64,000 nt of DNA from an uncultured Chloroflexia bacterium (GTDB lineage: Bacteria; Chloroflexota; Limnocylindria; Limnocylindrales; CSP1-4): assembly GCA_963704325.1 (NCBI GenBank), contig OY969885.1:1383188-1447187 (forward strand), in the 5' to 3' direction. The notes under the pieces were generated by a model. The model did no database searches and had not been told where the DNA came from. It saw only the letters and a program-made list of their open reading frames with translations. This document shows positions 7,100 to 44,379 of this stretch, piece by piece; the stretch's first letter is position 1; every line of letters begins with the position of its first letter. The translations under genes and the position numbers were made by a program.

Positions 7100-7498
7100 G
7101 TGGACGACCTATACCGCGACGAGATCCTCGAGCACTACCGCAACCCGCACAACTTCGGCATCCTGGATTCGCCGACCACGGCCAAGGAAGGCGCCAATCC
7201 GCTGTGCGGCGACCGGATCACGCTGATGCTCTCGATCAACGACGAGGGCACGGTCGAAGACGTGTCCTTCACCGGCCGCGGCTGCGCGATCAGCCAGGCC
7301 TCGGCCTCCATGCTGACCGATGACATCAAAGGCAAGCCGCTGTCGGAGATCGCGCAATTCGACCGACAGCACGTCCTGGACAACCTGTCGATCGAGATCA
7401 GCCCGGCGCGCATGAAGTGCGCGATGCTGTCGATCGAGACGCTCAAGTCGGCCATCGACGATCGCGTCGACTGGCAGGGCAAGCTCGATGAATCCTGA
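7100..7498 (+). CDS. sufU: SufU/IscU-like Fe-S scaffold (NifU N-terminal domain)
   Basis: ILEHYRNPHNFG...CGD...GCAISQASASM...KCA carries the conserved Cys triad. GTG start. Confidence 0.85.
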   Translation: MDDLYRDEILEHYRNPHNFGILDSPTTAKEGANPLCGDRITLMLSINDEGTVEDVSFTGRGCAISQASASMLTDDIKGKPLSEIAQFDRQHVLDNLSIEISPARMKCAMLSIETLKSAIDDRVDWQGKLDES

Positions 7499-8645
7499 TC
7501 GGTCGCTGCCCCTGGCGCGCGGGCCGGTACGCGAGGTGATGCCGGCCGAGGCGGCTGAGCTGATCGCCGCTGGCGCGGTCCTGCTCGACACGCGCGAGCA
7601 GCACGAGTGGAACGCCGGATACCTGAACGGCGCCACGCTGCTGCCGCCGATGCAGGTCACGCAGCGTGTTGAAGAGATCGCGCCGGACAAGAGCAGGCCG
7701 GTCGTGATCTATTGCGCGGCGGGGGCGCGATCCATGCGCGCCGCGGTCCAGCTCGCCCAGATGGGCTACACGGACGTGGCGTCCATGGCCGGCGGCATCG
7801 GACTGTGGAAGTCGGAGGGCCGGCCCACCCAGATGCCGCAGTCGACGCCGGCCGTCGCGAGCAACCCGCGCTACGCGCGCCACCTGGTCATGCCGGAGGT
7901 CGGGCCGGAGGGCCAGGCCAAACTGCAGCAGTCGAAGGTGCTGTTCATCGGTGCCGGCGGGCTGGGCTCGCCCGGTTTGCTGTACCTGGCCGCGGCGGGC
8001 GTCGGGACCCTGGGCATCGTCGATTTCGACGTGGTCGACCTTTCCAACCTGCAGCGCCAGGTTGTCCATGCCGACAACCGGATCGGCATGAAGAAGACCG
8101 CGTCGGCGGCGCAGACGATCCGCGCCCTCAACCCTGAGGTGAAGGTCGTCGCGCACGAGGAGATGCTGACCGAAGAGAACGTCGATCGGCTCATCGCGGG
8201 CTACGACGTCGTGATCGACGGAACGGACACGTTCGAGACGCGCTACACGCTCAACGACGCTGCCGTGCGCGCGGCGATTCCGGTCGTGCATGCATCGGTG
8301 TTCCGCTTCGAGGGCCAGCTGAGCGTCTTCGTGCCCTACGAAGGGCCGTGCTACCGCTGCCTGTATCCCACGCCGCCACCGCCCGAGCTTGCGCCCGGTT
8401 GCTCTGTCGCGGGCGTGCTTGGCGTCGTGCCGGGCGTGATGGGCCTGCTCCAGGCGACGGAGGCGATCAAGGTCCTGCTGCACATCGGCGATCCGCTCGT
8501 GGGCCGCCTCTTGATCTGGGACGCGCTCGACGGAGCGTTCAGCGAGGTGACATTGCGCCGTGATCCGGCCTGTCCGGCATGCGGCGTGGACGCCAGCCGG
8601 CGCGAGGTCGCCGCCGCTCAGCCCGCCTTCGCCAGCGCCGGGTGA
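7488..8645 (+). CDS. rhodanese-ThiF/MoeB (E1-like) fusion, MoeZ-like with rhodanese at the N-terminus
   Basis: Residues 1-120 are a rhodanese domain (active site YCAAGARS). Residues 130-385 are a ThiF/MoeB adenylyltransferase (GAGGLGSP, RQ, CYRC...CPAC zinc motif). Confidence 0.85.
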   Translation: MNPDRSLPLARGPVREVMPAEAAELIAAGAVLLDTREQHEWNAGYLNGATLLPPMQVTQRVEEIAPDKSRPVVIYCAAGARSMRAAVQLAQMGYTDVASMAGGIGLWKSEGRPTQMPQSTPAVASNPRYARHLVMPEVGPEGQAKLQQSKVLFIGAGGLGSPGLLYLAAAGVGTLGIVDFDVVDLSNLQRQVVHADNRIGMKKTASAAQTIRALNPEVKVVAHEEMLTEENVDRLIAGYDVVIDGTDTFETRYTLNDAAVRAAIPVVHASVFRFEGQLSVFVPYEGPCYRCLYPTPPPPELAPGCSVAGVLGVVPGVMGLLQATEAIKVLLHIGDPLVGRLLIWDALDGAFSEVTLRRDPACPACGVDASRREVAAAQPAFASAG

Positions 8646-8665
8646 CCCGGGTCCGAATACCTCCC

Positions 8666-8935
8666 GTGCTGCGCGTCCATGTCGGCGGGCAGAAGGAGGT
8701 GGACGCTTCTGGAGCCACGGTGGGCGAGCTGCTGCGCGAACTCTCGGGCCGCAGCTCTGGACTGGCCGAGCAGCTCTTCACGGACGACGGCGCACTGCAT
8801 CGCTTCGTCAACGTCTATGTCAACGGCCAGGACGTGCGCTACCTGTCGGAGCTCGACACGCCCGTGTCGGAGCGCGATGCGGTGATCATCCTGCCGGCCA
8901 TGGCGGGAGGCTCGGCCGCCGCCACAGGCTCTTGA
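8666..8935 (+). CDS. cysO: CysO/MoaD/ThiS-like sulfur carrier with a 7-residue extension after the Gly-Gly
   Basis: 90 aa with ...ILPAMAGGSAAATGS* at the C-terminus. GTG start. The stop overlaps the cysM TTG start (TTGA). A JAMM protease lies downstream. Confidence 0.7.
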   Translation: MLRVHVGGQKEVDASGATVGELLRELSGRSSGLAEQLFTDDGALHRFVNVYVNGQDVRYLSELDTPVSERDAVIILPAMAGGSAAATGS

Positions 8936-9864
8936 GCGTCAGCGTCTCGCTGCTCGACCTGATCGGGCGTACACCGCTCGTCGATATCTCCCGTTTCTGC
9001 CCAAATCCCGGCGTCCGGCTGCTGGTCAAGCTGGAGGGCGCCAACCCCACTGGATCGGTCAAGGACCGCGTGGCGCGCTACCTGGTTGCCGACCTGGAAC
9101 GCGCAGGCCGCCTTGGTCCGGACGCGATCATCCTGGAGCCGTCGAGCGGCAACACCGGCATCTCGCTCGCGCTTGTGTGCCTGTTGAAGGGCTACCGGTT
9201 GACCGTTGTGATGCCGGACAACGTGACTCGTGAGCGGCGCCAGCTGCTCGAGCTTTACGGCGCTCAGATCATCGATTCACCCGGCGCCCTGGGCTCCAAC
9301 GGCGCGGTGGCGATGGCCCGTCAGCTGGCGGCGGCCGATCCGCGCTACGTCATGGCCGACCAGTACGCCAACCCGGCCAACCCGCTCGCCCACTACGAGA
9401 CGACCGGCCCGGAGATCATCGCCGACTGCCCGGAGATCGACGTCTTCGTCGCCGGACTGGGCACGGGCGGGACGCTGATGGGCGTGAGCCGGCGACTGCG
9501 CGAGCTCGACCGCCCGGTGCGCATCTACGCCGCGGAGCCGATGCCGGGCGAGATGGTCCAGGGCCTGCGCTCGATTGACGAGGGCTTCGTGCCCGAGATC
9601 TTCGACCCGTCGGCCATTGACGGTCGCTTCCTCGTCACAACAGCCGAGTCGATCGAGGCTTTGCGCAGGCTGACCGCGACCGAGGGGATCTTTGCCGGCG
9701 TCTCGGCCGGGGGAGTGCTTGCCGTCGCGTCGCGCATCGCGCTGGGCATGGAGTCGGGGACCATCGTTGCGCTCCTCGCCGACGGCGGCTGGAAGTACCT
9801 GTCCGAAAACGTCTGGTCGCGCGACCTCGATGATGAGTCGGTGGAGAGCCTCAACCTGTGGTGA
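8932..9864 (+). CDS. cysM: O-phosphoserine sulfhydrylase / cysteine synthase CysM (PLP-dependent)
   Basis: TPLVDI...KLEGANPTGSVKDR (PLP lysine), SSGNTG and GTGGT motifs. TTG start coupled to the cysO stop. Confidence 0.85.
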   Translation: MSVSVSLLDLIGRTPLVDISRFCPNPGVRLLVKLEGANPTGSVKDRVARYLVADLERAGRLGPDAIILEPSSGNTGISLALVCLLKGYRLTVVMPDNVTRERRQLLELYGAQIIDSPGALGSNGAVAMARQLAAADPRYVMADQYANPANPLAHYETTGPEIIADCPEIDVFVAGLGTGGTLMGVSRRLRELDRPVRIYAAEPMPGEMVQGLRSIDEGFVPEIFDPSAIDGRFLVTTAESIEALRRLTATEGIFAGVSAGGVLAVASRIALGMESGTIVALLADGGWKYLSENVWSRDLDDESVESLNLW

Positions 9865-10361
9865 AGGAGTCGCTGCCGACGCCCGAAGAATGGGCCGCGG
9901 TCAAGCGCGAGCCGGCCGGCATGGCAGGCGCCGCGGATGAGCTGGCGCATGTCTCGCTGCCGGCGGCTCTGCTGCAGGAGGTGATCGACGCGGCCAGGGA
10001 CGGGCTGCCCAACGAGTCATGTGGGCTACTGGTCAGTGACCGCTACGCGGCGGATGGCGGGACACCGTCGCGCTACATCGCCTTGCGCAACGCGGCGGAG
10101 TCGCCCTACCGCTACCTGATCGACCCCCAGGAGCAGCTCCGCGTGTGGATCGCGATCGAAGACGCCGACGAGGTCGTTTGGGCGATCGTCCACTCCCATG
10201 TGGCATCCCTCGCACGGCCGTCCGCGACTGACGTGGGCCTGGCCTACTTCCCGGATTCGCTGTACGTGATCTGTTCGCTTGCCGCCGCGGATCAGCCGGA
10301 GGTCCGCGCCTGGTCCATCCACGACGGCAATGTCACCGAGGTTCAGCTAGGCGTCGCCTAG
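9858..10361 (+). CDS. mec: Mov34/MPN/JAMM metalloprotease (Mec+-like)
   Basis: The JAMM motif HSHVASLARPSATD (HxHx7Sx2D) is preceded by ...ESCGLLV. The start overlaps the cysM stop. Confidence 0.8.
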   Translation: MVKESLPTPEEWAAVKREPAGMAGAADELAHVSLPAALLQEVIDAARDGLPNESCGLLVSDRYAADGGTPSRYIALRNAAESPYRYLIDPQEQLRVWIAIEDADEVVWAIVHSHVASLARPSATDVGLAYFPDSLYVICSLAAADQPEVRAWSIHDGNVTEVQLGVA

Positions 10362-11184
10362 CAAGCGCTTCGACGAACGACTCCTCAGTGGGCGTTGAGC
10401 CCAGACCGGCCGCCGCGCCTGCACGGGCAGCAAGGGGTGGTTCGAGATACGTCGAGCGGAGCACCTCCCAGCTGGGTTCGGCGAACGCTTCGTGAACCGG
10501 CGCGTCGAGCACAACCCGCCCATCGCGCATGACGATGATCCGCTCGAATGCCTGCGCGACGAAGCCCATGTCGTGGCTGATCGCGACCACGGTCCGCCCA
10601 TGGGCTGACAGCGCGCGAACGATCCCGACCACGCGCTCGATTCCGCGGCGGTCCTGGCCGGTGGTCGGCTCGTCAAGGACGATTGCCGGGGTGCCCATGG
10701 CCAGGATCGATGCGAGCGCCAGCAGCTTGCGCTCGGAGAAGCCGAGGTCGTACGGGTTCGAGTCGGCGTGAGCCTCCAGTCCAACCGATTGGAGGGACTC
10801 CGCGACGGCGTTGTCCAGGGCTTCACCGCGCAGCCCCAGATTGCGCGCCCCGAAGCCGACTTCAGCGCGGACGCGGGCGGAGAAGATCTGGCGGTCCGGG
10901 TTCTGGAAGCTGATGGCGACGTCGCGCGCCAGCTGCGCCACGTGGCGGCGCGCGGTGTCCTTTCCGTTGACGAGGACGCGACCTTCCGTGGGCCGCAGCA
11001 GCCCGTTGAAGTGACGCACGAGCGTGGACTTGCCCGATCCGTTCTGGCCCACGATGGCCACGCGCTCGCCGGCCGCGATGCTGAGCGACACGCCCTCCAG
11101 CGCGCGGGTGCCATCGGGGTACGCGAAGCTGACGTTCTCGATGGCCAGCGCGACGCCGGTGCGACCGGCGGATTCGGCGCTCAT
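10333..11184 (-). CDS. ECF transporter ATPase component (EcfA-type ABC ATP-binding protein)
   Basis: GQNGSGKST, LSGGQ-like FSERK, DEPTTGQD. The ATG at 11184 overlaps the upstream stop by 4 nt. Confidence 0.85.
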   Translation of the reverse strand: MSAESAGRTGVALAIENVSFAYPDGTRALEGVSLSIAAGERVAIVGQNGSGKSTLVRHFNGLLRPTEGRVLVNGKDTARRHVAQLARDVAISFQNPDRQIFSARVRAEVGFGARNLGLRGEALDNAVAESLQSVGLEAHADSNPYDLGFSERKLLALASILAMGTPAIVLDEPTTGQDRRGIERVVGIVRALSAHGRTVVAISHDMGFVAQAFERIIVMRDGRVVLDAPVHEAFAEPSWEVLRSTYLEPPLAARAGAAAGLGSTPTEESFVEALARRRLAEPR

Positions 11185-11984
11185 GTCCAGCCGTCGTCCC
11201 ACGGCTGGCCGGCCGACTCGACCGCCCGACGCAGGCGCACCGGCGCCGGGGGCGCCACTCCCCAGCTTTCCAGGCTAGCGTCGCTGAGGACATCCGCCGT
11301 CTCTCCGCTCGCGACGACCCGTCCGCGATCGAGCACGACCACCTCGTCGCACATGCCCGACAGCAGGTCCGTTTTGTGCTCCACGATCAGGATGCCCGCC
11401 CCGGTCGTGCGTGCCAGACGCTCGAGCGCATCGCCCACCAGGCGGGTGCCGAGCGGATCGAGCTGGCTGGTCGGCTCGTCGAGCACCAGGTACGCCGGCC
11501 GCAGCGCGACGACGCCGGCCAGCGCGACCAGCTGGGCCTGGCCGCCGGACAGCCTGCCCGGGTCACGCTCCACGATTTCGCGGATGCCGAGGACGTCCAC
11601 CGCGGACCAGACGCGCTCGACCAGCTCGTCCAGCGGCAGGCCCAGGTTGCGCGGACCGAACGCGACCTCCTCCCAGACGTTGGGGGCCGAGCCGGACAGC
11701 TGGGTATGCGGCTCCTGGAAGAGGATTCCCGTGCGCTGGGCAAGTTCCGCGGCAGAAGCGGCAGAGGTGCCCAGTTCGTCGATGAGCACGGCTCCAGTGA
11801 GATCGCCACCGATCGTCCGCGGGGCGAGGCCGACGGCGGCCAGGCACAGCGTCGACTTGCCCGCGCCATTGGGCCCGACCACACCCACGATCTGCCCCGG
11901 CGCCACCTCCAGGCTGATCCCGTCCAGCACCAGCGCATTCGACCCGGCGTACCGGTAGCCCACGTTGTGGAAGACGAGGCTCAT
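11181..11984 (-). CDS. ECF transporter ATPase component (second EcfA)
   Basis: GPNGAGKST, LSGGQAQ, LDEPTSQLD. ATG at 11984 (MSLVFHNVGYRY). Confidence 0.85.
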   Translation of the reverse strand: MSLVFHNVGYRYAGSNALVLDGISLEVAPGQIVGVVGPNGAGKSTLCLAAVGLAPRTIGGDLTGAVLIDELGTSAASAAELAQRTGILFQEPHTQLSGSAPNVWEEVAFGPRNLGLPLDELVERVWSAVDVLGIREIVERDPGRLSGGQAQLVALAGVVALRPAYLVLDEPTSQLDPLGTRLVGDALERLARTTGAGILIVEHKTDLLSGMCDEVVVLDRGRVVASGETADVLSDASLESWGVAPPAPVRLRRAVESAGQPWDDGWT

Positions 11985-12631
11985 GGCAGCGCCGCCACGA
12001 AACCGGTCAGGGCTGCGACAACGAGGGCGATTGCAAGGAGAGCCAGGCCCCATCGCAGTGACCGCTGGGCGGCGCTGTCGGGATATGCGCGCAGCACGGA
12101 GCGCCGGCCCGGAGCGGAGAACGCGCGCGCCTCGAGGGCCATCGTCCGATGCTCCACCTCTGTCAGCGCGCCCAGGACGAGCGGCCCGGACAGCGGCACG
12201 AGGCCGCGCAGCCGGGAGCGCAGGCCGCCCTGCGTGTCCAGGCCGCGCGCGCGCTGGGCATCGACGATCTCGCGCGCGCGCTCGGCCATGCGCGGCACGG
12301 TGCCGATGGCCGTGCTCAGGATGAACGCGCCGCGCCGGCCCAGCCCGCGCCGCTCCAGGTCGTCGACCAGCTCGTCCGTGCGCGTCGTCAGCGCGAAGAG
12401 GGCGACCGACGATGCGAAGGCCAGCACGCGCAGTGATGCCTGGCCGGCCTCCGTCAGGCCGCTGCCGGTCGCGCTCAACGGCCCGAGGGTGAAGGCCACG
12501 TCCGTGGCCGGATAGAGAAACGTGTTGATCAGAATGATCGAGATGAGCAGCGGCGATGTGGCCAGCAGGTAGGGCACCAGTCGACGGCCCACCCGCGCGT
12601 AGGCGATCAGGCCAAGCATCACTACCAGCAC
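11981..12631 (-). CDS. ecfT: ECF transporter transmembrane T component (EcfT/CbiQ). The true start is probably upstream of the first canonical start codon.
   Basis: CbiQ-like TM protein. The frame stays open about 43 codons further upstream and encodes the conserved EcfT N-terminus ...ERGPYRSLNPTTKLVVAFASALIAF, but with no ATG/GTG/TTG. Only CTG at 12758-12760 is in frame. Confidence 0.65.
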   Translation of the reverse strand: MLVVMLGLIAYARVGRRLVPYLLATSPLLISIILINTFLYPATDVAFTLGPLSATGSGLTEAGQASLRVLAFASSVALFALTTRTDELVDDLERRGLGRRGAFILSTAIGTVPRMAERAREIVDAQRARGLDTQGGLRSRLRGLVPLSGPLVLGALTEVEHRTMALEARAFSAPGRRSVLRAYPDSAAQRSLRWGLALLAIALVVAALTGFVAALP

Positions 12632-12789
12632 GACGATCGGCGCGGTCCAGCCGCGAACGCCGAACGCGATCAGCGCGCTGGCGAAGGCGACGACAAGCTT
12701 CGTTGTTGGGTTGAGGCTTCGATATGGACCTCGCTCTGGTCGAGCGACGAAATCGGGCAGGCCGCGCGACGACGCGGCGGCGGGGCTCG

Positions 12790-13638
12790 TTACGACGCCG
12801 CGTCCACCGGCGGCAGTGGCTCGTCCACTGGCCGGGTCAGCTTGGGACCGAGCGGGAACCGGGCCAGGAAGCGCGGCGAGAGGCTGACCAGGATCGCGTA
12901 GACCACGAAGCTCGTGATCAGCTTGTCAATGGGATCACTGAAGAACCCTTGTCCGAGCGAGGCCGTGATCACGTCCGCGCCGCCCTGTCGGAGCGCGGCG
13001 ACGATCAGGTCCGTGCCCGATCCGGTCACGCCGCCGAACAGGATGGCGGAGATGGGCGCGGAGACGATCGCCGCGACGACGCCGGTCGCGATGCCGGCAA
13101 TCGCCACCCATAGCGGCGCAAGATCGCGCCGGGCAAAGATGAACCCGACCACGACCAGGGCCATGATGATCGCGATGGTCACTGCGGCTGGAACCGCCCA
13201 GGCGACGAACCCGCCCTGCTCGGGATCCAGGTAGATGGGGTTGCTGATCAGGGGCAGCACGACGAGCAAGGCCAGCGCCGCGGCGATGAGCGCGCCTATC
13301 CACAGCCGCGGGCCACCGGCCGGCCGTGGCCTGAACAGGCCCATCTGTCCCCAGATGCCGGCCAGCAGGCCGATCACCGCGGCGACGATGAAGAAGGGTC
13401 CGATCGTGCCGCCACCGATGACCGGCGCGTACTGCCAGATCAGGTTGGTCAACGCGCCGGTGAGTGCGCCGGCGAGGGGGCCGGCAAGGACGCCGACGAA
13501 GATCGTGCCGATCGAATCGAGGTAGATGGGCAGCTTGAGAACGGTCTGGACCACGTACCCGAGCACGATGTTGATCGCGATCGCGACCGGGATGAGCACG
13601 ATCACCCGGGTGGTGAACTGCCTCGAAATCCAGCTCAT
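12790..13638 (-). CDS. ECF transporter substrate-specific S component (unusually long, 282 aa)
   Basis: Multi-pass hydrophobic protein at the head of the ecfS-T-A-A' gene string, directly downstream of a nucleoside hydrolase. Confidence 0.7.
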   Translation of the reverse strand: MSWISRQFTTRVIVLIPVAIAINIVLGYVVQTVLKLPIYLDSIGTIFVGVLAGPLAGALTGALTNLIWQYAPVIGGGTIGPFFIVAAVIGLLAGIWGQMGLFRPRPAGGPRLWIGALIAAALALLVVLPLISNPIYLDPEQGGFVAWAVPAAVTIAIIMALVVVGFIFARRDLAPLWVAIAGIATGVVAAIVSAPISAILFGGVTGSGTDLIVAALRQGGADVITASLGQGFFSDPIDKLITSFVVYAILVSLSPRFLARFPLGPKLTRPVDEPLPPVDAAS

Positions 13639-13673
13639 TGCGTTCGGCCTCCCTGCCCTCTTGCGCTTCGCGC

Positions 13674-14660
13674 TCAGATTGCCACGTTAGCGCGCGCCGT
13701 GGCCAGCTTTGCGACACGTTCGACGAAGCGCGCAAAGAAGGATTCCACGTCCGCCTCCAGGGCGATGTCCAGGTTCGGCTCTCGACCCCAATGCTGGCGC
13801 CAGTCGGTCACGGTCTGGCCAGCGGTCAGCGATCCCGTCAACTCGACCTGCACGGTCAGGGCGCTGGTCTGGATCAGCGAGGGGTCCAGGGCCGCCGCGA
13901 CCGCCAGGGCGTCGTGGATGAAGGCGCCGTAGAAGCCGTCGTACCTGGCGTGATACTCCATGTAGAAGCGCAGCGCGTCCTCCACGAAGCGCACGAGCGG
14001 CGGTGCAGGCGGCCCGCCCGCCGCGGCGCTCAGTTGGAGCAGATGGTCGGGCAGCATCCTGGCCGTCTCGGTGACATCGAGACCCAGCGCCACCGGCCGC
14101 CCCGCGGCAGGCATCTCGGCCCAGCCGTCGAGCACCGCCTGCATGGCATCGGGATCGACTGCAACGTTCCACTCGCTGGTCGGTGTCGTGTTGCCCGGCG
14201 AGCGGTATGCGCCGGCCATCATGACCAGGCCACGCAAGAGCCTGGGCAGCTCCGGCTCACGCTCCAGCGCGACTGCAAGATTGGTGAGTGGCCCGAGCGT
14301 GATCATGGTCACCTCGCCCGGCGCCGACCGTGCTGCGTCCACGATGACGTCCGCGCCGTGACGGGTGCTGAGCGACGCACGAGCAGGCGGCAGCTCTGCG
14401 TAGCCCAGGCCGCGCGGACCGTGCGTGTCCTCCGCGGTCATCCGCTGCCGGACGAGCGGCACCTCACGGCCGAGCGCCACCTCCACGTCAGCGCGACCGC
14501 CCAGCTCGAGCACCGCGAGGGTGTTCTGGGCAACCTGTCGCGCCTCGACGTTACCCGAGGTGCACGTCACGGCCAGGATGTCGGCCTCCGGCGACGCGCA
14601 CGCGTAGAGCAGCGCCAGTGCATCGTCTATGCCCGTGTCGACGTCGATCAGCAGCTTCAT
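13674..14660 (-). CDS. nucleoside hydrolase (inosine-uridine preferring, IunH/RihA family)
   Basis: N-terminal MKLLIDVDTGIDDALAL (DxDxxxDD Ca-binding motif). 328 aa. Confidence 0.85.
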   Translation of the reverse strand: MKLLIDVDTGIDDALALLYACASPEADILAVTCTSGNVEARQVAQNTLAVLELGGRADVEVALGREVPLVRQRMTAEDTHGPRGLGYAELPPARASLSTRHGADVIVDAARSAPGEVTMITLGPLTNLAVALEREPELPRLLRGLVMMAGAYRSPGNTTPTSEWNVAVDPDAMQAVLDGWAEMPAAGRPVALGLDVTETARMLPDHLLQLSAAAGGPPAPPLVRFVEDALRFYMEYHARYDGFYGAFIHDALAVAAALDPSLIQTSALTVQVELTGSLTAGQTVTDWRQHWGREPNLDIALEADVESFFARFVERVAKLATARANVAI

Positions 14661-14685
14661 CGGTCGTCCCGCAGACTACATAGCG

Positions 14686-15372
14686 ATGACCGTGGATGGA
14701 GTCGCGATCTTGGCTCGCATGCGCCTGCGCGTGTACGAGCATTTCGTGGAGCACGGCGTGCCGCCCGTCGTTGAGCAGCTGATGGCTGAGTTCCAACTGT
14801 CACGCGCTGAAACCGTGTCAGCCCTGGGCGGCCTGGCCGAAAGGCGCGACGTCGCCCTGGTCAAAGGCACCGCGCGCATCCTGATGGCGTGGCCGTTCTC
14901 CGCCGTTGCGACTCCGTTCGTGGTGCGCGCTGGCGGCCGAGCGTACTTCGCCAACTGCTCCTGGGATTCGATCGCCTTCCATGCGCTGTTGCGCCAGCCG
15001 ATCCGGATCGAGTCGCACTGCCACCACTGTGCCGCCGCGATCGCGATCGATATGGAAGATGGCCGCGCCGCGCGCGTTGAGCCGTCGGCGACAATCGTCT
15101 ACCTGGCCCTGCGGCCCACTCAGTGGTGGGAGGACATCATCACGACCTGCTCGAACACGATGGTCTTCTTTTGCTCCGCGGAGCATCGCGATGCGTCCGA
15201 CCTGACTGCGTCGCCCGACCAGGCGGCTTCGCTGACGCCCGATCAGGTGCACCTTCTGAGCATTCCGCTCTACGAGGGCCGCCTCGAGCTCGACTACGAG
15301 CGTCCCGGACGTGAAGCGCTCAACTCGCTCTTCGCTCGCCTTGGCCTGACCGGCCCCTACTGGCAGATCTGA
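14686..15372 (+). CDS. alkylmercury (organomercurial) lyase MerB-family protein
   Basis: AYFANCSWDSIAFHALL and HCHHCAA correspond to the MerB catalytic Cys/Asp/Cys positions. ATG at 14686 chosen; 14719 is an alternative. Confidence 0.65.
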   Translation: MTVDGVAILARMRLRVYEHFVEHGVPPVVEQLMAEFQLSRAETVSALGGLAERRDVALVKGTARILMAWPFSAVATPFVVRAGGRAYFANCSWDSIAFHALLRQPIRIESHCHHCAAAIAIDMEDGRAARVEPSATIVYLALRPTQWWEDIITTCSNTMVFFCSAEHRDASDLTASPDQAASLTPDQVHLLSIPLYEGRLELDYERPGREALNSLFARLGLTGPYWQI

Positions 15373-17090: not shown

Positions 17091-17390
17091 CTAGATCGTG
17101 GCGATGTTTGAGACGCCGCCCACCACGCCGGCCATGACGCCGAACACGAACAGGCCCACGGCCAGGTTTCGGCGGCGTGTGGCGATGATGAACATCAGAC
17201 CCGCGGCAAAGGCCACGGTCACGACCTTGGCCAGCGTCAGTCCGGCGAGGCCGATCTCCTGGTGGAGCAGCACCACGACAGGGTTCGCCTCTGCGGCCAG
17301 CCCATGGCGGCCGATCATGACCAGGAACGATGCGTAGTCAAAGAAGTGCGCGAGAGCGAGTACGCCCATTGCTATCGCGTAGTGGGGCAC
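17091..17390 (-). CDS. small membrane protein, hypothetical
   Basis: 99 aa with 3 TM helices. Confidence 0.45.
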   Translation of the reverse strand: MPHYAIAMGVLALAHFFDYASFLVMIGRHGLAAEANPVVVLLHQEIGLAGLTLAKVVTVAFAAGLMFIIATRRRNLAVGLFVFGVMAGVVGGVSNIATI

Positions 17391-17631
17391 GGTCTTCCGA
17401 TCCAGCTGTGGACGGGACCGGGCTCGCCATTGCTCCGCGCGACCTACGGCGACCGATTGGTTTAGCCGCGCATCTCAGCTTCCCGAACTAGGTCCTGATA
17501 CTCAGGCGTGGCCGCGCTCCTGTCGATATCAGAAGCATGTACGTGTTGACCGAAGTCAACGGCCATGTACACCTCACCCCCTCGCACCCCGGTCGAGCGC
17601 ACAGGACCCGTAGTACCCAGGTCAGGGGTAC

Positions 17632-19952: not shown

Positions 19953-21467
19953 GTGAGTGATCAACCTGCGACACGCACCGAGAAGGACCCGCTCGGCCCG
20001 CTCGAGGTGCCCGCCGACGCGTATTTCGGCGTCCAAACCCAGCGCGCGATCCAGAACTTCCCGATCAGTGGGCGCAGTCCCGACATCGCCCTCGTGCGTG
20101 CCGCGGTACAGGTCAAGAAGGCCGCTGCACGAGCCAACCAGCAGACGGGCCGGCTTTCCGACCAGCTCGCGGGGGCCATCGTCCAGGCCGCGGACGAGAT
20201 CCTGGGCGTGCGCCAGAGCGACAGACAGGAGACGCTTGTCGGAAGCTTCCGGGTCGATCCATTCCAGGCCGGCGCGGGCGTCAGTCACAACATGAACACG
20301 AACGAGGTCCTGGCCAACCGCGCGATCGAGATCCTGGGCGCGCAGGGTGTCGGGGAGGGCAGGCGCGGCGATTACTCGACCGTCAGCCCGAATGACCACG
20401 TCAACATGGCCCAGTCCACGAACGACACGTTCCCCACGGCGATGCGCGTCGCGACGCTGGACCGTGTCGCCGAGCTGCTACCCGTCCTGGACGAGCTGGG
20501 CGAGGCGTTCGCCGAGCGCGGCCGCGCCTTCGACGGAGTGCTCAAGAGCGGTCGCACGCACATGCAGGACGCGGTGCCCATCCGGCTGGGCCAGGAGTTC
20601 GCGGCCTACGCGCTGACCGTGCGCCGCGCACGAGCGAACATCGCGGCCGCGGCCGAAGGGCTGCTCGAACAGAACATCGGCGCGACCGCGGTGGGCACGG
20701 GCCTCAACGCGGAGCCCGAGTACATCGAGCTGGTCGTGAAGCTGCTGTCCGAGCAGACCGGCCACTCGCTGCGCACCGCCGAGCACCTGGTCCAGGCGAC
20801 CCAGTCGATGGCGCCCATGCTGACCGTATCGGCCGCGCTGCGCGGGCTGGCGGTGGACCTGGCCAAGATCTGCGAGGACCTGCTGCTGATGTCATCCGGG
20901 CCGCGCACAGGGTTTGCAGAGATCCGCCTGCCCGCGCGCCAACCGGGCTCGTCGATCATGCCCGGCAAGGTCAACCCGGTGATGGTCGAGAACCTGTCGA
21001 TGATCTGCTACCACGTGATCGGGGCGGATACGGCAGTTGCCTGGGCGACGTCGCGCGGCCAGCTGGAGCTCAACGTGATGATGCCGATCATTGCCCACGA
21101 GGTCCTCGAGTCGCTCGTGGTGCTCACCAATGGGTCGCGCCAGTTCGCGCGCGAGTGCGTTGCGGGCATCGAGGCGGACGAGGAGCGCAGCGCATGGCTG
21201 CTCGAGCAGTCGAGTGCGATGGCCACTCCGCTCGCGCCGTACATCGGCTACGCCCTCGCCGCCGACATCGCCAAGGAAGCGGTCGCGACCGGTAAGACCA
21301 TTCGCGCGCTGGTCGTGGAGAAGGGGGTTTTCACGGAGGACGAGGTCAACCAGATCCTTGACCCGCACGAGCTGACGGAGCCGGGCGTGGCCGGCGGTTT
21401 CCGCTTCGAGCCGCGCATGCCTGAGGGCTATAAGCGCCCGACTGGCCCGGTCGGCGGCGGAGGCTGA
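19953..21467 (+). CDS. aspA: aspartate ammonia-lyase (class II fumarase/aspartase family) with C-terminal extension
   Basis: GSSIMPGKVNPVMVEN signature. KVNPV favours aspartase over fumarase (KVNPTQ). GTG start. Confidence 0.8.
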   Translation: MSDQPATRTEKDPLGPLEVPADAYFGVQTQRAIQNFPISGRSPDIALVRAAVQVKKAAARANQQTGRLSDQLAGAIVQAADEILGVRQSDRQETLVGSFRVDPFQAGAGVSHNMNTNEVLANRAIEILGAQGVGEGRRGDYSTVSPNDHVNMAQSTNDTFPTAMRVATLDRVAELLPVLDELGEAFAERGRAFDGVLKSGRTHMQDAVPIRLGQEFAAYALTVRRARANIAAAAEGLLEQNIGATAVGTGLNAEPEYIELVVKLLSEQTGHSLRTAEHLVQATQSMAPMLTVSAALRGLAVDLAKICEDLLLMSSGPRTGFAEIRLPARQPGSSIMPGKVNPVMVENLSMICYHVIGADTAVAWATSRGQLELNVMMPIIAHEVLESLVVLTNGSRQFARECVAGIEADEERSAWLLEQSSAMATPLAPYIGYALAADIAKEAVATGKTIRALVVEKGVFTEDEVNQILDPHELTEPGVAGGFRFEPRMPEGYKRPTGPVGGGG

Positions 21468-21544
21468 GGATCGCCACACCAGACCTGCCGCCGTTCGAGC
21501 TGGGCTATTCCGGCACGGAGCTGCGCCGCAAGCTGACAAACGCT

Positions 21545-21865
21545 GTGCTGCGCGGCGAGAAGACGGCGACCGCGGGTCTCGCCGCTGACCATGCGCCGCA
21601 CACGGATGAGCCACTGCCAGTGGCGGGCGACCAGTGGATCATGATCGGCTACGACGATGAGCCGCTGGCGATCATCGAGACGACCGAGGTCTCGGTCGTC
21701 CCCGCGGGCAAGGTTGACGTGGGGTTTGCGCGCGATGAGGGCGAAGGCTTCGAGTCGGTCGCCGACTGGCGCGCAGCGCACGAGCGGTTCTGGTCTGACC
21801 AGGTGATCACTGACGAAACGTTGATCGTCTGCGAACGGTTCAAGATCGTGGAGCGCCTCGCTTGA
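21545..21865 (+). CDS. ASCH domain protein (start probably upstream and non-canonical)
   Basis: The ORF from the GTG is ASCH-like (VLRGEKTATAG...). The in-frame upstream sequence ...PPFELGYSGTELRRKLTNA extends the ASCH N-terminus but has no canonical start. Confidence 0.55.
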   Translation: MLRGEKTATAGLAADHAPHTDEPLPVAGDQWIMIGYDDEPLAIIETTEVSVVPAGKVDVGFARDEGEGFESVADWRAAHERFWSDQVITDETLIVCERFKIVERLA

Positions 21866-44303: not shown

Positions 44304-44379
44304 GGGGGAGTAGCTCAGTGGTTAGAGCAGACGGCTTATATCCGTCCGGTCCCTGGTTCGAATCCAGGCTCCCCTACCA
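44304..44379 (+). tRNA. tRNA-Ile, anticodon UAU (reads AUA)
   Basis: Manual fold:
- acceptor GGGGGAG/CTCCCCT (one G-U pair)
- D-arm GCTC-AGTGGTTA-GAGC
- anticodon stem GACGG/CCGTC with loop cTTATAt
- variable loop CGGTC
- T-arm CCTGG-TTCGAAT-CCAGG
- discriminator A, then encoded CCA. Confidence 0.75.

What the first reader, a model, noticed from the sequence alone, without database searches (positions are those of the whole stretch)
10333..14660. ECF transporter linked to a nucleoside hydrolase; S component unusually long; T component lacks a canonical start
- The gene order is nucleoside hydrolase, then S, T, A' and A on one strand.
- The 282-aa S unit is about 100 aa longer than typical S components.
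- ECF S components next to IunH-type hydrolases suggest salvage of a ribosylated micronutrient (for example queuosine or another nucleoside) that is hydrolysed after uptake.
- The conserved EcfT N-terminus (...SLNPTTKLVVAF...) is encoded in frame upstream of the first ATG/GTG/TTG, and only a CTG is available.
Basis: partly seen in the sequence, partly recalled or inferred. Interest (0 to 1): 0.5.

Follow-up and report, generated by a model that had tools for sequence, protein, structure and literature searches.

The report
Nucleoside-salvage ECF transporter, startless T gene
This is a five-gene operon for an ATP-driven micronutrient importer plus a nucleoside-splitting enzyme, most likely for salvaging the tRNA nutrient queuosine; that is a known kind of system, but here one membrane subunit gene has no normal start codon across a whole class of soil bacteria, and the substrate-binding subunit carries two extra membrane helices.

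Summary
All three observations are real and conserved. The order hydrolase-S-T-ATPase-ATPase (window 14660-10333, minus strand) recurs in about 90 Limnocylindria (Chloroflexota) loci.

- **S component.** S has a true ECF S-component fold. It carries a ~70-residue, two-helix insertion between core helices 3 and 4, which shorter ~200-aa relatives lack.
- **Substrate.** Three of those shorter relatives sit next to tgt, one also next to Qng1. The hydrolase pairing mirrors queK-qrtT of C. difficile. Queuosine salvage is therefore the best-supported substrate guess, but it is unproven.
- **T start.** 43 codons upstream of the first ATG/GTG/TTG are under purifying selection (pN/pS 0.09-0.26), so they are translated.
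  - The CTG is not the general start. The two closest relatives have CTT and CTC there, and one has no table-11 start at all.
  - The S-T spacer keeps T one base behind the S frame and has codon-phased composition.
  - The T-frame codon overlapping the S stop is GTA, ATA or CTG far more often than chance.
  - The other junctions of the operon use canonical ATGA/GTGA.
- **Best reading.** T is made by termination-coupled restart at a near-cognate codon overlapping the S stop.

Known kind, new variant. Interest is moderate to high.

The parts
13674..14660 (-). Inosine-uridine-type nucleoside hydrolase (328 aa), first gene of the operon; candidate QueK-like queuosine hydrolase.
   Evidence: PF01156, E 2.6e-92, full length. 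Best solved relatives are IU-NH and RihA, E 5e-48 to 3e-46. Below every NCBIfam equivalog cut-off. The DVDTGIDD motif is at residues 6-13, read. It lies directly upstream of S in 51 of 61 loci.
13648..13653 (-). GGGAGG Shine-Dalgarno-like motif 9 nt upstream of the S start codon ATG, inside the 35-nt hydrolase/S gap.
   Evidence: Read. No terminator-like or promoter-like site in the gap.
12790..13638 (-). ECF S component (282 aa), long form of the family nearest to NCBIfam NF045596 ('CD3073 family').
13111..13329 (-). Insertion of about 70 residues (S residues ~104-176) forming two extra hydrophobic helices between core helices 3 and 4.
   Evidence: Gap in every ~200-aa relative in the MAFFT alignment. 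Model helices 109-125 and 148-170 have block pLDDT 85-95. The NF045596 and phmmer matches split into two stretches around it.
12790..12793 (-). GTAA: the S stop codon TAA overlapped by the T-frame codon GTA. Same -4 nt geometry as the ATGA overlaps further down the operon. Proposed restart site for T.
   Evidence: In relatives this 4-mer is GTAG/GTAA, ATAG/ATAA, CTAG or CTGA. Base before a TAA/TAG stop is G 13, A 7, C 2, T 0, against a third-position background of G 0.35, C 0.54, A 0.05. GTAG is kept in the two closest relatives.
12761..12789 (-). S/T spacer. In the T frame it reads (V)TSPAAASSRG, a variable Ala/Pro/Thr/Ser-rich tail that appears to be translated.
   Evidence: Length is 2 mod 3 in 22 of 27 distinct TAA/TAG junctions, with eight different lengths. 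Period-3 composition is in the T frame: position 2 is C in 71%, chi-square 110, p 2e-21. The R-G codons just before L use all four synonymous codons.
12758..12760 (-). CTG encoding the L of LPDFV. It is the only table-11 start codon in the open T frame upstream of the conserved N-terminus in this window, and is the alternative start candidate.
   Evidence: The same codon is CTT in L102, CTC in L103, and CTC, CTA, GTC or GTT in other loci.
11981..12793 (-). ECF T component: 270 aa if it starts at GTA 12793, 259 aa from CTG 12760, and 216 aa from the first canonical GTG 12631, which would delete the first membrane helix.
   Evidence: PF02361 CbiQ, E 1.1e-23, starting about 14 residues after the L of LPDFV. 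pN/pS is 0.09-0.26 over the 43 codons upstream of the GTG. T follows S in 78 of 78 loci.
12629..12631 (-). First canonical start codon (GTG) in the T frame, inside the second hydrophobic segment. This is where an ORF finder starts T.
   Evidence: Gene callers likewise truncate T in relatives, to 184 aa in L102 and 225 aa in L103.
11981..11984 (-). ATGA: T stop overlapped by the start of the first ATPase gene (canonical coupling).
   Evidence: The T/A' junction has a canonical start in 51 of 53 loci.
11181..11984 (-). First ECF ATPase (267 aa from ATG 11984).
   Evidence: PF00005. Best NCBIfam hit is TIGR04520 ECF_ATPase_1, 192.7 bits, below cut-off.
11181..11184 (-). ATGA: stop of the first ATPase overlapped by the start of the second ATPase.
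   Evidence: ATGA or GTGA in 35 of 36 loci.
10333..11184 (-). Second ECF ATPase (283 aa from ATG 11184).
   Evidence: PF00005. Best NCBIfam hit is TIGR04521 ECF_ATPase_2, 209.2 bits, below cut-off.

Best explanation
The locus is one operon of a Limnocylindria-class Chloroflexota bacterium. It encodes a dedicated (group I, QrtTUVW-like) ECF importer preceded by a cytoplasmic IU-type nucleoside hydrolase.

Proposed function (inferred).
- The S component binds a ribosylated micronutrient outside the cell, most likely queuosine or a related 7-deazaguanine compound.
- The T subunit and the two ATPases drive its import.
- The hydrolase removes the ribose to release the base (queuine) for tRNA modification.

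S architecture (shown by alignment and structure model). S is a long form of its family, with a two-helix hairpin inserted between core helices 3 and 4.

How T is made (inferred).
- T has no canonical start codon.
- Ribosomes that finish S at its stop codon restart one base back in the T frame, on the near-cognate codon overlapping the stop. That codon is GTA in this window and ATA, GTA or CTG in relatives.
- This produces a short, variable Ala-rich tail ahead of the conserved LPDFV...LNPTTK N-terminus.
- A restart codon too weak for independent initiation would tie T synthesis strictly to S synthesis. Relatives reach the same outcome by fusing S and T into one protein.
For: Identity and linkage:
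- Domains and S fold.
- Gene order conserved: hydrolase in 51 of 61 loci, T in 78 of 78.
- 35-nt hydrolase/S gap without a terminator-like site.

Substrate:
- Family members P0198 and P0171 sit directly after tgt. P0162 sits in a Q_salvage(Qng1)-TGT-S-T-AA' cluster.
- These relatives and the window S hit the same NCBIfam model at similar scores, 92-120 bits.
- The queK-qrtT pairing and the QrtTUVW system are documented (PMC11477304, PMC12632869, PMC6593275).

T start:
- The upstream 43 codons have pN/pS 0.09-0.26.
- L102 has no ATG, GTG, TTG, CTG or ATH codon in its 54-nt open T frame, and L103 has CTC at the L codon. Both keep GTAG.
- The T frame is the S frame minus 1 in 22 of 27 TAA/TAG junctions, across eight spacer lengths.
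- Spacer composition is codon-phased, p 2e-21. In the four loci with a 38-nt stop-to-LPDFV distance, third codon positions vary most and 52% of single-difference codon pairs are synonymous, against 14-29% in the shifted frames.
- The base before the stop is a purine in 20 of 22 loci with TAA/TAG stops, and C in 12 of 13 with TGA stops. The control set in another frame gives C 11, G 11.
- GGAGG lies 9-13 nt before the stop in 8 of these 22 junctions, and at -16 in a ninth.
- More distant relatives have GTGA or an adjacent canonical start at the same place: L095, L017, L048.
- The other junctions of the same operon are canonical.
- Natural S-T fusion proteins exist in the family.
Against: - GUA is not a recognised bacterial start codon. 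In E. coli only AUA, AUC, AUU and CUG reach about 1-2% of AUG (bioRxiv 10.1101/063800).
- Four junctions (L089, L039, L048, L073) have the TAG in frame with T, so a restart on an overlapping codon is impossible there. L089 then offers only CTG at the L codon.
- GC content by codon position showed no ordinary coding signature in the spacer.
- The window itself lacks the GGAGG motif before the S stop.
- The p-values ignore shared ancestry among loci.
- Substrate: no tgt, Qng1, queL or preQ1 riboswitch is in the window or flanks. The hydrolase is closest to generic IU-NH and RihA. The S score is below the family cut-off.
Confidence: 0.5

Rival explanations
1. T starts at the in-frame CTG (12760-12758) by ordinary, weak, near-cognate initiation. 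The spacer would then be untranslated.
For: - CTG is the only table-11 start in the open T frame of this window.
- Most members of the window's clade have CTG at this codon. Several loci that lack it have another in-frame CTG 18-24 nt upstream.
- L089 offers nothing else.
- CUG initiates at about 1-2% of AUG in E. coli.
Against: - The two closest relatives have CTT and CTC there and no other CTG. L102 has no table-11 start at all.
- The R-G codons just upstream vary only synonymously.
- Spacer length keeps the frame, and spacer composition is codon-phased.
- No SD-like motif sits at a useful distance from the CTG in most loci.
Confidence: 0.2
2. S and T are made as one fusion protein by recoding: a -1 shift at the end of S, or read-through where the TAG is in frame. 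No T start codon would then be needed.
For: - The T frame is the S frame minus 1 in most loci, and TAG is in frame in four.
- Genuine single-ORF S-T fusions exist in the family: P0191, P0192, P0224 and others.
- The S tail plus spacer plus T N-terminus is about 55 residues, counted from the sequences. That is about the length of the fusion linkers.
- GGAGG before the stop resembles known frameshift stimulators (own knowledge: dnaX, B. subtilis cdd).
Against: - No slippery sequence. The last sense codons vary (tcg, gca, cag, acg and others) and cannot re-pair one base back.
- No conserved downstream RNA structure.
- The preference for A, then G, over C before the stop looks like start-codon recognition. 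A shift would only need a sense codon there.
- Many relatives have T in another frame, or have canonical starts.
Confidence: 0.1
3. The transporter imports ordinary nucleosides or another ribosylated compound rather than queuosine, and the hydrolase serves general nucleoside salvage.
For: - The hydrolase is most similar to non-specific IU-NH and pyrimidine RihA enzymes.
- No queuosine-pathway gene and no preQ1 riboswitch lies in the 64-kb window or the flanks of related loci.
- The long-form S is a separate branch that could have changed specificity.
Against: - ECF transporters are high-affinity micronutrient systems (established knowledge).
- Three independent relatives of S are embedded in tgt or Qng1 contexts.
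- The QueK subgroup also belongs to the IU-NH family and is typically next to a QueT-family transporter gene (PMC12632869).
Confidence: 0.3
4. T really begins at the first canonical GTG (12631), as gene callers assume, or it is a decaying gene.
For: This is the default ORF call. Relatives are annotated the same way.
Against: - It would remove the conserved N-terminus and the first membrane helix. The CbiQ profile match starts upstream of the GTG.
- pN/pS is 0.09-0.26 in the upstream 43 codons.
- The ORF is intact in 78 of 78 loci.
Confidence: 0.03

Closest known systems
queK-qrtT-queL queuosine salvage of Clostridioides difficile (Yuan et al. 2019, as described in PMC11477304, PMC11130926, PMC11570991)
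   Same: An IU-family nucleoside hydrolase gene sits next to an ECF S-component gene of the broad PF12822 type. In C. difficile the logic is to import queuosine, queuine or preQ1 and hydrolyse queuosine to queuine.
   Different: - C. difficile uses a shared ECF module encoded elsewhere, a preQ1-I riboswitch and the lyase QueL.
- Here the module is dedicated and in the operon, no riboswitch or queL is seen, and S has two extra helices.
- Orthology of the hydrolase to QueK was not tested.
QrtTUVW, the predicted dedicated ECF transporter for queuosine precursors (Rodionov et al. 2009, cited in PMC6593275 and PMC5372724)
   Same: Four-gene S-T-A-A architecture dedicated to one S component. The family is associated with queuosine genes.
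   Different: Membership rests on context in relatives only. The window S is below the cut-off of the nearest curated model, and no reference QrtT sequence was available for comparison.
Qng1(Q_salvage)-TGT-S-T-AA' cluster found here in L101, and tgt-S pairs in L096 and L097
   Same: Same S family (E 1.6e-33 to 7.4e-28 to the window S; same NCBIfam model) and the same dedicated T and ATPase partners.
   Different: - Those S proteins are the ~200-aa six-helix form.
- The salvage enzyme is Qng1 rather than an IU-type hydrolase.
- The ATPases are fused.
Canonical -4 nt stop/start overlap (NTGA) translational coupling by termination-reinitiation (PMC6728339, PMC10666635, PMC12548453)
   Same: Identical geometry: the downstream frame is one base behind the upstream stop. 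The same operon uses ATGA twice, and relatives use GTGA at the S/T junction (L095, L017).
   Different: The overlapping codon is GTA, ATA or CTA (with TAA/TAG stops) or CTG (with TGA), never a canonical NTG start in the window's clade. The reviews read here describe no such case.
Single-polypeptide S-T fusions in the same family (P0191, P0192, P0224, P0226 and others; locus L092)
   Same: S and T are made in fixed 1:1 proportion. The linker is of similar length and is similarly Ala/Pro/Ser/Arg-rich.
   Different: The fusions are one ORF with a short-form S. In the window S and T are separated by a stop codon and a frame change.

Membership tests
ECF transporter, dedicated (group I) type | S component with the six-helix ECF S fold | tested here: met
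ECF transporter, dedicated (group I) type | T component of the CbiQ/EcfT family with coupling-helix Ala-Arg-Gly motifs | tested here: met
   PF02361, E 1.1e-23. The second motif, QRARGLD, is present, and the first position reads ERRGL (read). The motif definition is from own knowledge.
ECF transporter, dedicated (group I) type | Two ABC ATPases of the ECF type encoded with S and T in one operon | tested here: met
   Best NCBIfam hits are ECF_ATPase_1 and ECF_ATPase_2, below the equivalog cut-offs. ATGA overlaps link T, A' and A. The order is conserved.
NCBIfam NF045596 'CD3073 family putative ECF transporter S component' | Whole-protein score at or above the curated cut-off of 180 bits | tested here: not met
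   109.7 bits in two stretches. Short and long relatives score 92-120 bits. This is a sister group, not a member by the curated rule.
QrtT-type queuosine-precursor S component | Genomic association with queuosine genes (tgt, Qng1, queK, queL) or a preQ1 riboswitch | tested here: inconclusive
   Met in relatives L096, L097 and L101. At this locus there is only an IU-type hydrolase, with no riboswitch and no tgt or Qng1.
QrtT-type queuosine-precursor S component | Transport of preQ1, queuine or queuosine | not testable with these tools
   Needs uptake assays.
QueT (PF06177) | Match to the QueT Pfam model | tested here: not met
   No Pfam family matched S at E <= 0.01.
QueK queuosine hydrolase subgroup of the IU-nucleoside hydrolase family | IU_nuc_hydro domain with the N-terminal DXDXXXDD motif | tested here: met
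   PF01156 over its full length. DVDTGIDD at residues 6-13. This feature is shared by the whole superfamily.
QueK queuosine hydrolase subgroup of the IU-nucleoside hydrolase family | Clusters with validated C. difficile QueK in a sequence-similarity network; hydrolyses queuosine | not testable with these tools
   No reference QueK sequence could be retrieved. The subgroup definition is from PMC12632869.
QueK queuosine hydrolase subgroup of the IU-nucleoside hydrolase family | Gene adjacent to an ECF S-component gene of the queuosine type | tested here: met
   35-nt gap to S in the window. Adjacent in 51 of 61 loci.
RihA / RihC / UriH ribonucleoside hydrolases (NCBIfam equivalogs) | Score above the equivalog cut-off | tested here: not met
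   196, 183 and 192 bits against cut-offs of 433, 382 and 450.
NTGA (-4 nt) stop/start overlap coupling | Downstream frame one base behind the upstream stop codon | tested here: met
   GTAA at 12793-12790. 22 of 27 TAA/TAG junctions and 13 of 39 TGA junctions share the geometry.
NTGA (-4 nt) stop/start overlap coupling | The overlapping codon is a canonical start (ATG, GTG or TTG) | tested here: not met
   GTA in the window. Relatives have GTA, ATA, CTA or CTG, and only one GTGA occurs among 66 junctions.
Programmed -1 ribosomal frameshift | Slippery sequence allowing tRNA re-pairing, plus a conserved stimulatory structure | tested here: not met
   The last sense codons are variable and non-slippery. 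No conserved structure. An SD-like GGAGG is present upstream in only part of the loci.

The most novel reading that the evidence does not exclude
The T subunit is synthesised with no recognised start codon at all.
- Ribosomes terminating on S restart one base back on the GUA, AUA or CUG that overlaps the S stop.
- This would be a natural, class-wide, selected case of start-codon-relaxed termination-reinitiation.
- It would make T production strictly dependent on S translation, which is the functional equivalent of the S-T gene fusions seen in relatives.
- A second gene in the same window (the ASCH gene, with a CTGA overlap) hints that the lineage uses the trick more than once.
Probability: 0.4. 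Interest if true: 0.75.

Novelty: new variant of a known kind. Interest (0 to 1): 0.55.

Why it matters
- **Annotation.** Gene callers truncate T (184-225 aa in close relatives) and leave an apparent gap after S. The transporter is therefore mis-annotated in an abundant, uncultured class of soil bacteria.
- **Translation.** If the restart reading is right, the locus is a conserved natural test case for how far start-codon identity can be relaxed in termination-reinitiation. It would also show near-cognate restart codons being used to lock subunit stoichiometry. Reviews of translational coupling read here describe only canonical NTGA and TGATG overlaps.
- **Transporter mechanism.** An S component with a two-helix hairpin inserted between core helices 3 and 4, together with natural S-T fusions in the same family, is informative for the toppling model of ECF transport.
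- **Ecology.** It would extend queuosine salvage, so far studied mostly in host-associated bacteria, to free-living Chloroflexota.

Tried and rejected
- **Compensating CTG.** In one search, loci lacking CTG at the L codon seemed to have another in-frame CTG upstream. The two closest relatives, L102 and L103, have neither, so this no longer counts as evidence for a CTG start.
- **GC by codon position in the spacer**. No ordinary GC3 > GC2 signature, because the tail is Ala/Pro-rich. It was replaced by the base-by-phase test.
- **Synonymous/non-synonymous counts in the spacer**. They support coding in the four loci with a 38-nt stop-to-LPDFV distance. They are not decisive in the ten, more diverged, loci with a 35-nt distance.
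- **RNA structure at the junction.** The window folds into a hairpin with the stop codon in its loop, but z is -1.58. RNAalifold finds no shared structure.
- **Riboswitch search.** No preQ1 or other riboswitch upstream of the operon in the window or in 17 related loci.
- **Promoter and terminator scan.** No promoter-like site. The terminator-like hits are no more than in shuffled sequence and none lies between genes.
- **Slippery site.** None found for a -1 frameshift (read).
- **tgt and Qng1.** Not found in the window or in the flanks of Limnocylindria loci.
- **Literature on CD3073, CD1683 and the original ECF classification paper.** Nothing usable was held, so the identity of CD3073 remains unknown to me.
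- **Extra genes between hydrolase and S in L001**, and neighbours in the window (MerB-like, JAB): uninformative for the substrate.
- **Contexts L092, L093, L095, L098, L099, L100.** No salvage enzyme visible, or the contig is too short.
- **First junction-control script**. It had a scanning flaw and was redone.

Full report
**What is there**

The window is 66-72% G+C. On the minus strand lie five co-oriented genes:
- An inosine-uridine-type nucleoside hydrolase, 13674-14660, 328 aa, PF01156, E 2.6e-92.
- A 282-aa membrane protein, 12790-13638.
- A CbiQ/EcfT-type T component, stop at 11981.
- Two ABC ATPases, 11181-11984 and 10333-11184.

The hydrolase/S gap is 35 nt. It holds a GGGAGG motif before the S start codon and no terminator-like site. 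T/A' and A'/A are joined by ATGA stop/start overlaps.

**Relatives and linkage**

The S protein has thousands of relatives. The closest are 271-299 aa, with few exceptions. Their genomes are MAGs labelled Candidatus Limnocylindria/Limnocylindrales or Chloroflexota. I collected 33 genomic and 58 metagenomic loci.
- T follows S in 78 of 78 loci that have enough downstream sequence.
- The hydrolase lies within 300 nt upstream of S in 51 of 61 loci with upstream sequence. In five more it lies 0.46-3.5 kb away.

The operon, including the hydrolase, is therefore a stable unit of this class.

**The S component**

A search of 1.8 billion representative proteins found about 200-aa relatives that align with S residues ~4-103 and ~171-265. 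A MAFFT alignment places a ~70-residue insertion (S ~104-176) exactly between core helices 3 and 4. The model shows it as two confident helices, 109-125 and 148-170. Long-form relatives at 42-55% identity also carry the insertion, so it defines a subfamily rather than a single genome. Solved S components are 155-207 residues. I know of no described S component with two helices inserted at this point; this rests on my own knowledge.

**Substrate**

Three short-form family members have informative neighbours.
- P0198 (L096) lies directly after a gene matching PF01702 TGT, E 7.5e-45.
- P0171 (L097) lies directly after the C-terminal end of a TGT homologue.
- P0162 (L101) lies in a cluster Q_salvage (Qng1, PF10343) - TGT - S - T - fused ATPases.

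These proteins and the window S hit NF045596 at similar scores. The literature supports the same link:
- It describes QueT/QrtT S components and a dedicated QrtTUVW system for queuosine precursors.
- It describes the queK-qrtT-queL operon of C. difficile, in which QueK, an IU-family hydrolase, converts queuosine to queuine.
- It reports that queK genes usually sit next to QueT-family transporter genes (PMC5372724, PMC6593275, PMC11130926, PMC11477304, PMC12632869).

The best-supported reading is import of queuosine or a close relative, followed by hydrolysis to the base.

This is inferred, not shown.
- No riboswitch precedes the operon.
- No tgt or Qng1 is in the window or in the flanks of related loci.
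- The hydrolase is closest to generic IU-NH and RihA enzymes and below every equivalog cut-off.
- I could not obtain QueK, QrtT or CD3073 reference sequences.

**The T start: the observation**

The first ATG/GTG/TTG in the T frame is GTG 12631. The frame is open 165 nt upstream of the conserved LPDFV motif, and the only table-11 start in it is CTG 12760.
- The CbiQ profile match, the first hydrophobic helix and the motif LPDFVARPERGPYRSLNPTTKLVVAF all lie upstream of the GTG.
- Across relatives this N-terminus is conserved at the protein level with synonymous change.
- Over the 43 codons from L to the GTG, pN/pS against four relatives is 0.09-0.26.

That stretch is therefore translated.

The lack of a start is not an error and not a genome-wide habit. 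43 of 66 distinct S/T junctions have no canonical start within 60 nt of the S stop. The A'/A junction is ATGA or GTGA in 35 of 36 loci, and T/A' has a canonical start in 51 of 53. In the window itself, about 33 co-directional gene pairs mostly use ATGA, GTGA, TTGA or TGATG. Only S/T and one other pair lack a canonical start.

**The T start: where translation begins**

1. The L codon is CTG in most of the clade. It is CTC, CTA, GTC or GTT elsewhere. In the two closest relatives (S 92% and 91% identical) it is CTT and CTC.
   - L102 has a T frame open for only 54 nt, and that stretch holds no ATG, GTG, TTG, CTG, ATT, ATC or ATA.
   - L103 has none within 117 nt.
   - Both keep GTAG at the S stop.
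2. The two codons before L encode R-G (or R-R). All four synonymous codons of Arg and of Gly are used.
3. In loci with TAA/TAG stops, the distance from the S stop to the L codon is 32, 35, 38, 41, 47, 53, 56 or 59 nt. That is always 2 mod 3, and it holds in 22 of 27 distinct junctions. Ten junctions share 35 nt although their sequences are almost unalignable.
4. Read in the T frame, the spacer has strong codon-phased composition. Position 1 is G in 56% and position 2 is C in 71% (chi-square 110, p 2e-21). It encodes an Ala/Pro/Thr/Ser-rich tail.
5. In the T-overlap geometry the base before the stop is G 13, A 7, C 2, T 0 for TAA/TAG stops. The third-position background is G 0.35, C 0.54, A 0.05, T 0.07 (purine excess p 9e-7).
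   - For TGA stops it is C 12, G 1.
   - The control set with T in another frame gives C 11, G 11, A 2, T 1.
   - These p-values ignore shared ancestry.
6. GGAGG lies 9-13 nt before the stop in 8 of the 22 junctions, and at -16 in a ninth. It is absent in the window.
7. More distant relatives have canonical arrangements at the same place:
   - GTGA in L095 and L017.
   - TAG followed directly by GTG in L048.
   - TTG in L094.
   - ATG or GTG 3-78 nt before the motif in others.

Together these points say that the spacer is translated in the T frame, and that translation begins at or next to the S stop. The overlapping codon is selected to be GUA, AUA or CUG. Each is one mismatch away from a canonical start, but it is almost never a canonical start itself.

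**Mechanism**

The explanation I favour is termination-reinitiation in the standard -4 nt overlap geometry (PMC6728339, PMC10666635, PMC12548453), but on a near-cognate codon. Independent initiation on such a codon would be negligible: AUA, AUC, AUU and CUG give about 1-2% of AUG in E. coli, and other codons less (bioRxiv 10.1101/063800). T would then be made only by ribosomes that have just made S.

The family offers a parallel. Many relatives encode S and T as one polypeptide of 460-495 aa, with an S domain followed by a CbiQ domain. Their linker is about as long as the S tail plus spacer plus T N-terminus here.

Weak points:
- GUA is not a known start codon.
- Four junctions have the TAG in frame with T, so another route is needed there.
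- The window lacks the GGAGG motif.

Rival explanations:
- **Initiation at CTG 12760.** Possible for this window, but contradicted as a general rule.
- **An S-T fusion made by a -1 shift or read-through.** There is no slippery site and no conserved structure.
- **A truncated T starting at the GTG.** Contradicted by pN/pS.

**Comparison with known systems, and verdict**

By architecture this is a dedicated ECF importer of the QrtTUVW kind paired with a QueK-like hydrolase, which is a known kind of system. It is not a member of NF045596 or of any hydrolase equivalog by curated cut-offs. Membership in QrtT or QueK proper could not be tested.

Two features are new variants:
- The eight-helix S component.
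- The conserved absence of a start codon for T, with evidence for restart on a non-canonical codon overlapping the S stop.

The second is the more interesting and is directly testable. Interest is 0.55.

Noticed in passing
window 21464-21865 (+), junction with the gene ending at 21467: A second gene without a canonical start. The ASCH-domain match (PF04266, E 8.2e-17) begins at residue 20 of the reading that starts at a CTG overlapping the upstream TGA stop (CTGA). The first canonical GTG is residue 28, inside the domain. In-frame ATC and CTG codons follow the overlap.
   Followed up: partly
window 17406-17492 (-); also L006 2204-2291, L007 629-713, L008 1823-1905: Rfam match above gathering score to c-di-GMP-II-GCG/GAG riboswitch variants (56.7 bits in the window). 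It lies just upstream of a 99-aa hydrophobic protein gene (17091-17390). Similar matches lie 2.7-4.4 kb upstream of the hydrolase in three related loci.
   Followed up: partly
window 44304-44379 (+): tRNA-Ile with anticodon TAT (UAU), which reads AUA directly. I believe this is uncommon in bacteria, which usually use a lysidine-modified CAU tRNA (own knowledge). It may be worth a look given that ATA overlaps the S stop in several relatives.
   Followed up: no
proteins P0185, P0215, P0206, P0260, P0229, P0203 (relatives of the window S): An S-component-like membrane domain of this family is fused N-terminally to histidine kinases (DUF4118-PAS-HisKA-HATPase, some with receiver domains). This suggests the ligand-binding fold has been recruited as a sensor input.
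   Followed up: partly
proteins P0191, P0192, P0224, P0226, P0236, P0250, P0265, P0268; locus L092 5001-6476: Single-ORF fusions of a short-form S component with a CbiQ-type T component (460-495 aa). In L092 the fusion is followed by an ATPase gene and has no hydrolase nearby.
   Followed up: partly
window 14629-15372 (+) versus hydrolase start at 14660 (-): A MerB-like gene (PF03243, E 3.7e-21) runs divergently from the hydrolase. Its listed ORF start overlaps the hydrolase start. If it begins at the ATG at 14686, the two start codons are only about 25 nt apart, which leaves no room for a leader or riboswitch.
   Followed up: no
loci L102 1514-2068 and L103 2135-2812: Public gene calls for T in the two closest relatives are truncated to 184 and 225 aa, leaving 130-260 nt of apparently non-coding DNA after S. 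This looks like a systematic annotation error for this gene.
   Followed up: yes
proteins P0080 (436 aa) and P0028 (339 aa); loci L009, L041, L042 (about 460-nt hydrolase/S gap): Some relatives are predicted with 60-150 extra N-terminal residues on S that contain further hydrophobic segments. This is either an additional small membrane gene or an N-terminal extension.
   Followed up: no
window 7488-10361 (+): The genes just beyond the end of the ECF operon are linked by GTGA/TTGA overlaps. By reading of the translations they look like a ThiF/rhodanese protein, a ThiS-like carrier, a cysteine synthase and a JAB peptidase (PF14464, E 1.7e-17), resembling a carrier-protein-dependent cysteine pathway. 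They appear unrelated to the transporter.
   Followed up: no
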